Assembly (NCBI RefSeq): GCF_003991155.1
Contig: NZ_CP031293.1
DNA: 64,000 bases
Strand: one strand, 5' to 3'
Source of the DNA: Escherichia coli
GTDB taxonomy: Bacteria > Pseudomonadota > Gammaproteobacteria > Enterobacterales > Enterobacteriaceae
Position 1 is the stretch's first letter; every line of letters starts with the position of its first letter. Shown here one piece after another: positions 13,801 through 16,800 of this stretch. The position numbers were made by a program.

Positions 13801-16800
13801 GTATATGGCTGAAGTGGAGTCCGGCGTTTACCCGGGCGAAGAACACAGTTTCCATTAAGGAGTGACGTTGTGTTAATTATCGAAACCCTGCCGCTGCTGC
13901 GTCAGCAAATCCGCCGCCTGCGTATGGAAGGTAAGCGCGTGGCGCTGGTGCCAACCATGGGTAACCTGCACGATGGCCATATGAAGCTGGTCGACGAAGC
14001 CAAAGCCCGCGCCGATGTGGTCGTCGTCAGTATTTTCGTTAACCCAATGCAGTTTGACCGCCCGGAAGATCTGGCACGTTATCCACGGACCTTGCAAGAG
14101 GACTGCGAAAAGCTGAACAAACGTAAAGTGGATTTAGTTTTTGCGCCTTCGGTAAAAGAGATCTACCCGAACGGTACAGAAACCCACACCTATGTTGATG
14201 TTCCCGGTCTTTCCACCATGCTGGAAGGTGCCAGCCGTCCGGGACATTTTCGCGGCGTTTCGACTATTGTCAGCAAACTGTTCAACCTGGTCCAGCCGGA
14301 CATCGCCTGCTTCGGTGAAAAGGATTTTCAGCAACTGGCGCTGATCCGCAAAATGGTTGCCGACATGGGCTTTGATATTGAGATTGTCGGAGTGCCGATT
14401 ATGCGCGCGAAAGACGGTCTGGCGCTCAGTTCCCGTAACGGCTATCTGACGGCGGAACAACGTAAAATTGCGCCGGGTCTGTACAAGGTCTTAAGTTCAA
14501 TTGCCGACAAATTGCAGGCTGGCGAACGGGATCTCGATGAAATTATTGCTATTGCCGGGCAAGAACTGAATGAAAAAGGTTTCCGTTCCGATGATATTCA
14601 GATTCGCGATGCCGACACATTGCTGGAAGTCTCTGAAAACAGCAAACGTGCAGTGATTCTGGTAGCCGCCTGGCTTGGCGATGCCCGCCTGATCGACAAC
14701 AAAATGGTCGAACTGGCGTAATACTTAACTGGCGCTACGGCTGATGGCGCCAGTTATTCATTGCCACGTCATCTGTAAGCAATTATTCATATCGTAGACA
14801 ACTTAGTTAGAGTTAATTAGCTTATCAATCTCTGCAAGAGATAAAGCTGTCACCTCTGCAACGTCTTCCCGAGACATTCCTTTACTCAGAAGACGCTGGG
14901 CCAGTCTTACCTTCTGGAGTCCCTCTTTATATCCCTTCTGAAATCCCTTCTGAAATCCCTTCTGAAATCCCTTCTCTTCAAACCACTGCGCCAACGTCTG
15001 CCTGGTTTCTCTCCGTGTCTTTATTTCCATATGTTCCCTTAATTATCTGGTCAGTTAACAATAACAATTATCTGGCTATAACTGATAATGCAGATAACTT
15101 AGCTAATCAGCTTATCAACCTCAGCAAGAGGTAAATTTGCCATCTCTGCAACGTCTTCCCGAGACATCCCTTTACTCAGAAAACGCAGGGCGAATTCCTG
15201 TCTTACTTCCTGTCTAACCTCTTGTATTACCTCCTGTCTTACCTCCTGTCTTACCTCCTGCCTTTCCTCCTGTCTTCCCTTCTCTTCAAACCACTGCGCC
15301 AGCGTCATCATAGACTCCCCTCCCGTTTCCCTGTCTCTCAGCACACCATAAAACAAATCCGCTTGTTCAGTATGACCGCGTTGCAGCATATAGTTTTGCA
15401 TGGCAACTAACTGACTTCCGCTAGTGTACCCTTCGTCAATCAGCGTGACCAGTTGCTCCAGCAATAACATTAAGTCGCGTTGGCGAATATGTTTTTGCAG
15501 CAGTTCGAGAATCGCAATCCGCCGATGTTGCATGATTTCGTCATCCGGTGTGATAGTGATATCCACCAGCGGGAAAGGACTGTTATAGACGCGTCGCGCC
15601 AGCTCCGGCGAGTAAAACATATCAAACCAGCACATTGAGAGTGGATAAGGCGTGGCCTCGCCCTGATAAAACAAAATCGGCACCACCAGCGGCAGCTTAT
15701 CGTGATCCGCCTCCAGATGCCGGTGCATGGCGGCAATGGCATAGCGCATCATGCGAAAGGTCATTTTCTTATCCGGCTTGCTTTGATGTTCAATCACCAC
15801 ATGCAAATAACCGGGATTGCCCTGCATTTGTACGGAATAGAGTACGTCCGTGCTGTGTCCTTTCAGGCTTTCCTCAATAAAACTCCCCGACTCAAGATGC
15901 AGCGTGTCGAGGTCACACAGTTCGCGTAGCTCCGCTGGCAAATGAATATCCAGAAAGTCGCGAGCCGTTTCCGCATGCATTAAAAATTGTTTAAATACCG
16001 CATCATGCGGTGTGGTACTCGGTGCATCCATCTTCCCTGCCTTCCGTGCTGTCTTACGTGAAGGCAGTATCCAGTCAAGGCGCGCCGTCGTCAGCCGCCT
16101 CTTTTGTGTTTGCCGAGCAGCGTTCAGAGAAATTTCAATTGGTTACAGGTGTTACATGACTCGCTTCGGCACGGTACGCAAACTGCTGATGCAAATGCCG
16201 TCAGATGAGTAGACACTAAACAAAAATCGGGCAATACTGCGTGAGAATTTCCTCAAAGCAGGCATCGCCTGCTTCGTTAACGACAGGGTAGAAAGGTAGA
16301 AGTTATGATTCGCACGATGCTGCAGGGCAAACTCCACCGCGTGAAAGTGACTCATGCGGACCTGCACTATGAAGGTTCTTGCGCCATTGACCAGGATTTT
16401 CTTGACGCAGCTGGTATTCTCGAAAACGAAGCCATTGATATCTGGAATGTGACCAACGGCAAGCGTTTCTCCACCTATGCCATCGCGGCAGAACGCGGTT
16501 CGAGAATTATTTCTGTTAACGGTGCGGCGGCCCACTGCGCCAGCGTCGGCGATATTGTCATCATCGCCAGCTTCGTTACCATGCCAGATGAAAAAGCTCG
16601 CACCTGGCGACCCAACGTCGCCTATTTTGAAGGCGACAACGAAATGAAACGTACCGCGAAAGCGATTCCGGTACAGGTTGCCTGATTGTTATCCCTGCGG
16701 CTGGTTACTCACCAGCCGCGACATCGTCTCCAGCGAATCCGTTCTTAAGATATAAAGTCGTTTTAGTAACAACGGATTATCCCCCGGTTTTACTTTGCCT

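What the first reader, a model, noticed from the sequence alone, without database searches (positions are those of the whole stretch)
14931..15285. Two different 12-bp coding microsatellites in the rpnC tails
The rpnC tail contains about 7 degenerate tandem units of tacctcctgtct (RQEV/RQEE repeats). The orphan tail contains 3.5 exact units of ttctgaaatccc (GFQK repeats). In-frame 12-bp repeats can expand or contract by slippage without frameshifting, so tail length and sequence can vary rapidly. Not CRISPR: the units are contiguous with no spacers.
Basis: seen in the sequence. Interest (0 to 1): 0.45.

Follow-up and report, generated by a model that had tools for sequence, protein, structure and literature searches.

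The report
Variable four-residue repeats in RpnC tails
Two short in-frame 12-base repeat runs in an E. coli toxin gene (rpnC) and in the small antitoxin-like gene beside it are real and change copy number between strains, as published in 2023.

Summary
Tandem Repeats Finder reports a perfect 12-bp array (14931-14975, 3.8 copies) and a degenerate one (15196-15280, 7.1 copies). They are the only period-12 arrays in the 64 kb.

Both lie on the minus strand. One is in the C-terminal tail of rpnC (15099-16031). The other is in a 75-codon ORF just downstream (14803-15030) that copies that tail.

Across 5,426 complete E. coli genomes and other public assemblies:
- the rpnC array has 2-8 RQEx-type units (other strains have 1-7 KGIE units);
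- the downstream ORF has 1-3 KGFQ units;
- the two arrays vary independently.

One strain (2016C-3878) has no substitutions against the window over about 49 kb, yet has one KGFQ unit fewer.

None of this is new. Zhong et al. 2023 (PNAS, PMC10400941) showed that:
- Rpn proteins are toxin/antitoxin genes-within-genes;
- the tail (RpnS) is the antitoxin;
- "dodecamer"/four-amino-acid repeats in its first helix vary among strains and set which RpnS neutralises which RpnL;
- some E. coli carry a second copy, rpnCSs, downstream of rpnC.

Small additions here: both arrays are one 12-nt unit family in the same register, and the downstream copy usually, but not always, differs in length from its neighbour.

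The parts
15099..16031 (-). rpnC (RpnC-L, 310 aa): N-terminal PD-(D/E)XK YhgA-like nuclease domain plus the variable C-terminal tail
   Evidence: ORF. Pfam PF04754 covers residues 7-207, E 6.4e-87. TIGR01784 E 2.1e-82. 245/250 identical to K-12 RpnC. Lies between panC and panD as in K-12.
15099..15311 (-). Internal ORF rpnCS (70 aa, MMTLAQWFEE...), the predicted intragenic antitoxin. It starts at ATG-ATG (15306-15311) and is preceded by the Shine-Dalgarno sequence GGGAGGGGAG (15315-15324).
   Evidence: Read from the sequence. This stretch matches K-12 with one silent difference in the codon after the ATG-ATG. In K-12, RpnCS was detected by SPA tagging and ribosome profiling (PMC10400941).
15196..15280 (-). 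Degenerate 12-bp array in the rpnC/rpnCS tail: 7 RQEx units (KGRQ EERQ EVRQ EVRQ EVIQ EVRQ EVRQ). The whole variable helix segment spans 15180-15281.
   Evidence: TRF, (7.1 copies, 84%). Unit breakdown. Polymorphic at 6, 7 or 8 units (spans 169/181/193 bp) across genomes.
15031..15098 (-). 68-bp spacer between the rpnC stop and the downstream ORF. It holds the Shine-Dalgarno sequence AAGGGA (15035-15040), 4 nt before the ATG, and two copies of CCAGATAATT (15041-15050 and 15066-15075).
   Evidence: Read from the sequence. The spacer and start codon are nearly identical in loci L008-L010, whose repeat regions differ.
14803..15030 (-). Downstream stand-alone tail gene (75 aa), the rpnCSs of Zhong et al. 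It is a second RpnS-like small protein.
   Evidence: ORF. TIGR01784 C-terminal match, E 2.6e-10. 57% identical to RpnCS. Homologues carry PF27070 HTH_Rpn_C. About 28% of complete E. coli genomes cover at least 80% of the 641-bp two-tail query (1,541 of 5,426). Some records annotate it 'RpnC/YadD family protein'.
14931..14975 (-). Perfect 12-bp array in the downstream gene: KGFQ x3, followed by related units KGYK EGLQ KVRL. The variable segment spans 14890-14973.
   Evidence: TRF, (3.8 copies, 100%). Units. Other genomes have 1, 2 or 3 units. Strain 2016C-3878 differs from the window only by one unit here.
14726..14756 (.). 10-bp-stem hairpin (AACTGGCGCC...GGCGCCAGTT) between the convergent panC and downstream-ORF ends. 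It is probably a shared transcription terminator.
   Evidence: RNA fold (MFE -22.4 kcal/mol, z -2.1). The consensus terminator scan did not report it. It is also present after the single tail in K-12. Its function is inferred.

Best explanation
This is the hypervariable helix of the RpnC toxin-antitoxin locus of E. coli.

Genes and products:
- rpnC encodes a long protein (RpnC-L). It has a PD-(D/E)XK nuclease domain plus a C-terminal tail.
- From an internal start, rpnC also encodes a 70-aa small protein (RpnC-S) that is the tail alone.
- A 75-aa stand-alone copy of the tail (rpnCSs) lies 68 bp downstream.

Published experiments on K-12 RpnA, RpnB and RpnC show that RpnS binds and neutralises the toxic RpnL. 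The first long alpha-helix of RpnS is the oligomerisation surface.

The 12-bp units encode four-residue modules, one hydrophobic residue plus three charged or glycine residues. Each module lengthens that helix by about one turn. An RpnS neutralises an RpnL only if the two have the same number of modules.

Because the unit is 12 bp, gain or loss keeps the frame. Within rpnC it changes toxin and antitoxin together. Units are gained and lost one at a time within runs of identical units. The most likely mechanism is replication slippage or misalignment. The result is many alleles in the species.

The downstream copy carries its own, independently varying array.

Shown here: the anatomy, the homology, the copy-number polymorphism, the independence of the two arrays, and the speed of change relative to point mutation.

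Taken from the literature: the antitoxin function, the helix location and the length-matching rule.

Inferred: slippage as the mechanism, and expression of the downstream gene in this strain.
For: Arrays and frames.

Family membership: Pfam PF04754 E 6.4e-87; TIGR01784 covers both the full protein and the small ORF; PF27070 HTH_Rpn_C is precomputed on homologues.

Internal start: ATG-ATG behind GGGAGGGGAG, matching K-12 with one silent difference just downstream.

Polymorphism: 20 complete-genome loci and 18 further public loci give RpnC variable segments of 14-42 aa and downstream-copy segments of 18-30 aa, within each tail type in steps of 4. Among 120 database proteins the segment lengths also step by 4.

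Population scale:
- 1,541 of 5,426 genomes cover at least 80% of the two-tail query.
- Main-tail spans of 181, 169 and 193 bp occur in 14, 15 and 9 of 40 evenly spaced rows.
- Only six listed genomes have the three-unit downstream allele, and none is identical to the window.

Tempo: there are 0 substitutions over 2,441 bp, and none over about 49 kb, against strain 2016C-3878. The two differ by one 12-bp unit.

Recurrent independent events: the same downstream protein sits beside RpnC alleles that differ by one unit (L022 and L023). From one 30-aa allele, two different units were duplicated (L024 to L025, and L024 to L027).

Structure: the AF2 model puts the repeats in a long helix (residues 22-49), followed by two short helices.

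Function and prior description: PMC10400941.
Against: - No experiment was done on this allele. Toxicity, antitoxin activity and expression of the downstream gene are carried over from K-12 RpnA/B/C and from ypaA (rpnESs).
- The AF2 model is only moderately confident in the repeat region (pLDDT 54-72).
- Neither Foldseek nor sequence/profile searches recovered the RpnA-S crystal structure 7TH0.
- No sigma-70-like promoter was found on the minus strand by the simple scan.
- PADLOC v2 has no model that matches RpnC.
- Slippage is not separated from unequal recombination or from an RpnL-promoted process. Mosaic tails show that recombination also acts here.
Confidence: 0.85

Rival explanations
1. 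Copy-number change is driven mainly by homologous or illegitimate recombination rather than by replication slippage. The exchange could be between the two tails or among rpn paralogues, and might be promoted by the RpnL nuclease itself.
For: The tails are mosaic:
- A K-12-type KGIE tail occurs in the downstream position (L028-L030, P0066).
- A KGFQ-type tail occurs fused to full-length RpnC (P0031).
- The L012 main tail matches the L009/L035 downstream tail type.
- C-terminal segments (MANLPLAE / VTALSLAE / MATLSLTE) are shuffled between the two positions.
Zhong et al. raise RpnL involvement as a possibility.
Against: The smallest steps seen are single 12-bp units inside runs of identical units, in otherwise identical backgrounds. 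That is the classical signature of slipped misalignment. From established knowledge, arrays of 36-84 bp are below the length at which RecA-dependent exchange is efficient. Both processes probably operate at different scales.
Confidence: 0.2
2. The downstream 75-codon ORF is a decaying remnant of a tail duplication or replacement. It has no function, and its repeat variation is neutral.
For: - K-12 and about 70% of genomes lack it.
- PGAP calls it a pseudogene ('missing N-terminus') in some records.
- There are no expression data for rpnCSs.
- Its length usually does not match the neighbouring RpnC (13 of 15 distinct combinations). Under the published rule it would then not neutralise that RpnC.
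Against: - The ORF, its ATG and its Shine-Dalgarno sequence are intact in every two-tail locus examined, including those flagged as pseudogenes.
- About 28% of complete genomes cover the two-tail query, and close homologues are annotated in E. marmotae.
- The analogous ypaA/rpnESs is translated in K-12.
- The C-terminal helices are strongly conserved.
Confidence: 0.15
3. The repeats are tolerated low-complexity sequence, and copy number has no effect on function. The polymorphism would be neutral hypermutability rather than specificity tuning.
For: No functional test exists for the RQEx or KGFQ units. 12-bp changes are in frame by construction, so an intact frame is not evidence of selection.
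Against: Zhong et al. Fig. 4D: adding one KGIE unit to RpnC-S or to RpnC-LS abolishes neutralisation, and adding it to both restores it. The flanks are invariant while the array varies.
Confidence: 0.08

Closest known systems
E. coli RpnC-L / RpnC-S / RpnCSs (Zhong et al. 2023, PNAS 120:e2307382120; PMC10400941)
   Same: - Same gene at the same chromosomal site (panC-rpnC-panD).
- Same internal start.
- Same four-amino-acid ('dodecamer') repeats in the first helix of the tail.
- Same strain-to-strain variation in copy number.
- Same second small gene downstream of rpnC in some strains (their Fig. 2I).
   Different: Only the alleles differ. K-12 has KGIE/KGIQ units and a single tail. This window has seven RQEx units in rpnC and three perfect KGFQ units in the downstream copy. 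That three-unit version is rare: six listed genomes have it and none is identical.
ypaA / rpnESs downstream of rpnE in E. coli K-12
   Same: It is a stand-alone RpnS-like small gene immediately downstream of its parent rpn gene, and it also carries four-residue repeats. SPA tagging showed that it is translated.
   Different: It derives independently from RpnE, not RpnC (phylogeny cited). Expression of the rpnC-linked copy has not been tested.
EcoR124I / EcoR124II HsdS 'TAEL' repeats (type I restriction specificity)
   Same: A 12-bp, four-residue unit in a helical spacer. A change of one unit alters molecular specificity without breaking the frame. Zhong et al. cite it as the precedent.
   Different: There the helix length sets the spacing of two DNA-recognition domains (N6 versus N7 gap). 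Here it sets protein-protein pairing of toxin and antitoxin.
Contingency loci (phase-variable simple sequence repeats of Haemophilus, Neisseria, Campylobacter)
   Same: Tandem repeats inside genes that mutate much faster than point substitution and generate population heterogeneity.
   Different: Those repeats (1-7 bp) switch genes on and off by frameshift or promoter spacing. The 12-bp units here never shift the frame and change protein length instead.
Orphan toxin-tip/immunity modules downstream of cdiA and rhs genes
   Same: A displaced copy of the variable C-terminal module lies just downstream of the main gene, shares a conserved junction sequence, and can be fused back to the main gene by deletion (L012 and L015 versus L009 and L035).
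   Different: Here the displaced module is the antitoxin-like tail itself, not a toxin tip with its immunity gene. No evidence was gathered here for programmed switching.

Membership tests
Rpn (YhgA-like) recombination-promoting nuclease toxin-antitoxin, gene-within-gene | N-terminal PD-(D/E)XK YhgA-like (Transposase_31) domain | tested here: met
   PF04754 covers residues 7-207 (profile positions 1-201 of 203), E 6.4e-87. TIGR01784 E 2.1e-82. 245/250 identical to K-12 RpnC.
Rpn (YhgA-like) recombination-promoting nuclease toxin-antitoxin, gene-within-gene | Internal translation start that yields a small protein (RpnS) equal to the C-terminal tail | tested here: met
   The sequence motif is present: ATG-ATG at 15306-15311 behind GGGAGGGGAG, matching K-12 with one silent difference in the next codon. 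Actual translation in this strain cannot be tested here. It was shown for K-12 RpnCS.
Rpn (YhgA-like) recombination-promoting nuclease toxin-antitoxin, gene-within-gene | Four-amino-acid repeats (one hydrophobic residue plus three charged or Gly) that begin 8-20 residues after the RpnS initiator Met | tested here: met
   In RpnCS the units start at residue 11 (MMTLAQWFEE|KGRQ...). In the downstream copy they start at residue 20.
Rpn (YhgA-like) recombination-promoting nuclease toxin-antitoxin, gene-within-gene | Repeat number varies among strains of one species | tested here: met
   Variable segments are 14-42 aa (main tail) and 18-30 aa (downstream copy), within each tail type in steps of 4.
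Rpn (YhgA-like) recombination-promoting nuclease toxin-antitoxin, gene-within-gene | RpnS fold: three-helix bundle with a long first helix that carries the repeats (crystal structure 7TH0) | tested here: inconclusive
   The AF2 model has a long helix at 22-49 that contains the repeats, plus two short C-terminal helices. Mean pLDDT is 72. Foldseek against the PDB gave only non-significant HTH-domain hits (E >= 1.3) and not 7TH0. Sequence and profile searches of the PDB did not hit it either.
Rpn (YhgA-like) recombination-promoting nuclease toxin-antitoxin, gene-within-gene | RpnL is toxic (DNA cleavage, SOS induction) and the length-matched RpnS neutralises it; anti-phage activity | not testable with these tools
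   Known for K-12 RpnA/B/C and plasmid RpnP2. PADLOC v2 has no matching model.
rpnCSs (stand-alone RpnS copy downstream of rpnC) | Small ORF on the same strand immediately downstream of rpnC, homologous to the RpnC tail, with its own start codon | tested here: met
   14803-15030, 68 bp after the rpnC stop. ATG preceded by AAGGGA. 57% identical to RpnCS (E 2e-22). TIGR01784 C-terminal match. The same arrangement occurs in all 24 complete two-tail loci examined, and 1,541 of 5,426 genomes cover at least 80% of the two-tail query.
Phase-variable contingency locus | A change in repeat number switches expression on and off by frameshift or promoter spacing | tested here: not met
   The unit is 12 bp. 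All alleles seen keep the frame and the ORF.
CRISPR array | Repeats separated by unique spacers | tested here: not met
   The units are contiguous and coding.

The most novel reading that the evidence does not exclude
The downstream tail gene may not be a simple spare antitoxin for its neighbour. In this strain its helix segment is 28 aa against 34 aa in RpnC. In 13 of 15 distinct combinations sampled the two lengths differ, and the two arrays change independently. Under the published length-matching rule the downstream protein would then be non-cognate.

It could serve as a stored alternative tail. The tail could be swapped into rpnC by recombination or deletion between the conserved flanks (TLAQWFEE ... 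LSKGMSREDVAE). That would give a two-level diversification system, unit slippage plus cassette exchange, resembling orphan modules at cdi and rhs loci. Alternatively it could act as immunity against foreign RpnC variants.
Probability: 0.2. Interest if true: 0.45.

Novelty: already known. Interest (0 to 1): 0.15.

Why it matters
The repeats are the specificity dial of a toxin-antitoxin phage-defence candidate. One 12-bp step changes which antitoxin neutralises which toxin. That is a neat case of hypermutable sequence tuning a protein-protein interface.

It was established in 2023, so this window adds only two allele-level points:
- It holds a rare three-unit downstream allele.
- It gives an unusually clean near-isogenic comparison: no substitution in about 49 kb, but one repeat unit of difference. 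This shows how fast the array moves.

Two questions remain open and are worth an experiment:
- What does the stand-alone downstream copy do when its length does not match its neighbour?
- Does slippage or the nuclease itself drive the changes?

Tried and rejected
1. 'The downstream copy is never length-matched to its neighbour RpnC.' This held in the first 12 two-tail loci. I then fetched more loci, and L024/L026 (30 vs 30 aa) and L028 (22 vs 22 aa, nearly the same sequence) refute it. Mismatch is usual, not obligatory.

2. A link to the RpnA-S crystal structure (7TH0):
- phmmer with full RpnC and with the tail found nothing.
- A profile search with 42 tails found nothing.
- Foldseek with the AF2 model found nothing significant.
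- The only hits were weak HTH-like matches, including a designed repeat protein.

3. A promoter for the downstream gene. The sigma-70 consensus scan found nothing on the minus strand and no canonical terminator. A hairpin after the ORF was found only by folding.

4. PADLOC has no Rpn model hit.

5. Supplementary files of the 2023 paper are not held, so I could not check whether KGFQ or RQEx alleles are shown there.

6. A literature search for follow-up work on Rpn repeats after 2023 found none in the library.

7. The PGAP 'pseudogene, missing N-terminus' flags on the downstream ORF in L008-L010 are rejected. The ATG and Shine-Dalgarno sequence are intact there.

8. The gap between rpnC and panC in O157:H7 (L018) is an unrelated 301-bp insert, not a decayed tail copy.
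Full report
**What is there**

The window around the finding is the E. coli panB-panC / rpnC / panD region. On the minus strand lies a 310-codon ORF at 15099-16031. It carries the YhgA-like PD-(D/E)XK domain (Pfam PF04754, E 6.4e-87; TIGR01784, E 2.1e-82). It is 245/250 identical to K-12 RpnC over the first 250 residues.

A 75-codon ORF (14803-15030) begins 68 bp after the rpnC stop. Its product matches only the C-terminal end of the Rpn family model (TIGR01784 positions 213-273, E 2.6e-10). It is 57% identical to the RpnC tail.

**The observation**

Tandem Repeats Finder reports two arrays:
- 14931-14975: period 12, 3.8 copies, 100% matches.
- 15196-15280: period 12, 7.1 copies, 84% matches.

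Over the whole 64 kb only two other tandem-repeat loci are found, with 96-bp and 303-bp units, so these are the only period-12 arrays.

In the coding frame:
- The rpnC array reads KGRQ EERQ EVRQ EVRQ EVIQ EVRQ EVRQ EFAL.
- The downstream array reads KGFQ KGFQ KGFQ KGYK EGLQ KVRL.

At DNA level both are built from one 12-nt unit family (RAGGNANNNCAG) in the same register of homologous tails. The amplified unit is GAGGTAAGACAG in rpnC and AAGGGATTTCAG downstream. In K-12-type strains a third unit is amplified, AAGGGGATTGAG (KGIE). They are therefore sister arrays rather than two unrelated microsatellites.

**Does the number vary?**

Yes, in both arrays. A BLAST of 14690-15330 against 5,426 complete E. 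coli genomes hit 5,424 of them. Of these, 1,541 (28%) cover at least 80% of the query, which is the two-tail arrangement. Most of the rest have a single tail, as in K-12 and BL21.

I fetched 20 such loci and 18 more from other public assemblies, then translated the tails. I measured the segment between the invariant anchors AQWFEE and LSKGM:
- In RpnC it is 14, 18, 22, 26, 30, 34, 38 or 42 aa.
- In the downstream copy it is 18, 20, 22, 24, 26, 28 or 30 aa.
- Within each tail type the steps are 4 aa.

Among 120 database proteins that match the downstream ORF, the lengths likewise fall in two series that step by 4.

At population scale, the RQEx-type main tail has spans of 181, 169 and 193 bp (7, 6 and 8 units) in 14, 15 and 9 of 40 evenly spaced rows. 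In 335 genomes it is at least 99% identical to the window allele.

For the downstream array, the identity bands correspond mainly to one unit (681 genomes) and two units (647 genomes). Only six listed genomes have the three-unit length, and none is identical to the window.

**Tempo and independence**

Strain 2016C-3878 (NZ_CP029747.1) aligns to the window over 2,441 bp around the locus with zero substitutions and a single 12-bp gap, one KGFQ unit. I extended the comparison to about 49 kb. There is still no true substitution. The only differences are this unit, an 8-bp tandem unit in a fimbrial gene, and an ISApl1 insertion. So the array changes on the time scale at which no point mutation has accumulated in 49 kb.

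The two arrays move independently:
- The same downstream protein sits next to RpnC alleles that differ by one unit (L022 and L023).
- Strain 382634_2f has three downstream units but six main units.
- From one 30-aa main allele, two different units were duplicated in different strains (L024 to L025 by EVRQ, L024 to L027 by EVTQ).

Changes occur inside runs of identical units. That pattern fits slipped misalignment, although the mechanism is inferred.

**How it works**

The explanation is published. Zhong et al. 2023 (PMC10400941) showed the following:
- All five K-12 rpn genes contain an internal translation start that yields a small protein, RpnS, identical to the tail.
- RpnS binds the toxic nuclease RpnL and blocks it.
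- The RpnA-S crystal structure (7TH0) is a three-helix bundle that dimerises through a long first helix.
- Four-amino-acid ('dodecamer') repeats inserted in that helix vary widely among strains. RpnC has the most.
- Adding one KGIE unit to RpnC-S or to RpnC-LS abolishes neutralisation, and adding it to both restores it.

The paper also reports a second copy, rpnCSs, downstream of rpnC in some E. coli (their Fig. 2I). It states that the RpnSs proteins carry the repeats too, and that the downstream gene can be lost by deletion or by fusion to the rpn N-terminal region.

The window fits this description point by point:
- The internal ATG-ATG (15306-15311) sits behind GGGAGGGGAG. This stretch matches K-12 with one silent difference in the following codon.
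- The units start 11 residues (RpnC-S) and 20 residues (downstream copy) after the initiator, within the published 8-20 range.
- An AlphaFold2 model of the downstream protein places the repeats in a long helix (residues 22-49), followed by two short, confidently predicted helices. Mean pLDDT is 72, and lower in the repeat part.

I could not recover 7TH0 by sequence, profile or fold search, so the fold criterion stays inconclusive here. Newer Pfam annotation labels homologues of the downstream ORF PF27070 HTH_Rpn_C. Some RefSeq records already call the ORF 'RpnC/YadD family protein'.

**The downstream copy**

Its ATG, its AAGGGA ribosome-binding site and the 68-bp spacer are conserved. This holds even in loci where PGAP marks it a pseudogene. 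The ORF is intact in every two-tail locus examined.

Tails have moved between the two positions:
- A K-12-type tail occurs downstream (L028-L030).
- A KGFQ-type tail occurs fused to full-length RpnC (P0031).
- The single tail of L012 matches the downstream tail type of L009 and L035.

This agrees with the fusion and deletion events noted in the paper.

I tested whether the downstream copy is ever length-matched to its neighbour. Usually it is not (13 of 15 distinct combinations; 28 vs 34 aa in this window). It is matched in L024/L026 and in L028. So 'never matched' is rejected, and 'often non-cognate' remains an open possibility.

**Verdict**

Its own refutation test fails decisively. However, the phenomenon, including the downstream copy, is already described in the literature. 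What this window adds is allele-level detail and a clean near-isogenic demonstration of one-unit change. Interest is therefore low.

The most novel reading not excluded is that the downstream tail is a non-cognate stored cassette or foreign-variant immunity factor rather than a spare antitoxin. It rests on indirect evidence and needs the in-trans neutralisation assay described under next steps.

Noticed in passing
window 19680-20742: A 1,063-bp ISApl1 insertion (IS30 family) interrupts yadG, an ABC-transporter ATPase. The transposase ORF is 19682-20683 (-). The yadG halves are at 19294-19719 and 20738-21292. The insertion is absent from the otherwise identical strain 2016C-3878. It is 99.7% identical to ISApl1 copies that sit next to the PAP2 gene on plasmids, which from my own knowledge is the mcr-1 context.
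   Followed up: partly
window 11344-11359: An 8-bp tandem unit (TGATGGCG) is present in one more copy than in strain 2016C-3878. It splits a yad fimbrial subunit gene into two ORFs, 11022-11354 and 11351-11626 (+). This is a second slipped-repeat difference between near-identical strains, and this one shifts the frame.
   Followed up: partly
window 34788-35768: A 326-aa ORF (+) corresponds to the IS110-like IS621 transposase annotated at the matching position between lpdA and yacH in strain 2016C-3878. From my own knowledge, IS621 is the bridge-RNA-guided recombinase element. Its non-coding ends were not examined.
   Followed up: no
window 34036-34372 and 38671-39533: Two long coding tandem repeats. 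One has a 96-bp unit x3.5 at 88% (in yacH, by position against L021). The other has a 303-bp unit x2.8 at 79% (in aceF, the three lipoyl domains).
   Followed up: no
window 15041-15050 and 15066-15075: A 10-bp direct repeat CCAGATAATT (minus strand) occurs twice, 25 bp apart, in the spacer between the rpnC stop and the downstream ORF start. It is conserved in other two-tail loci. It could be a regulatory or promoter element. It was not tested.
   Followed up: no
loci L008-L010, L017, L018: Annotation and architecture are inconsistent at this site.
- The downstream ORF is variously called hypothetical protein, transposase, RpnC/YadD family protein, or pseudogene 'missing N-terminus', although its start is intact.
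- O157:H7 has an unrelated 301-bp insert between rpnC and panC instead of a tail copy.
- Strain BY68 has IS1 inserted 12 bp after the rpnC stop codon.
   Followed up: partly
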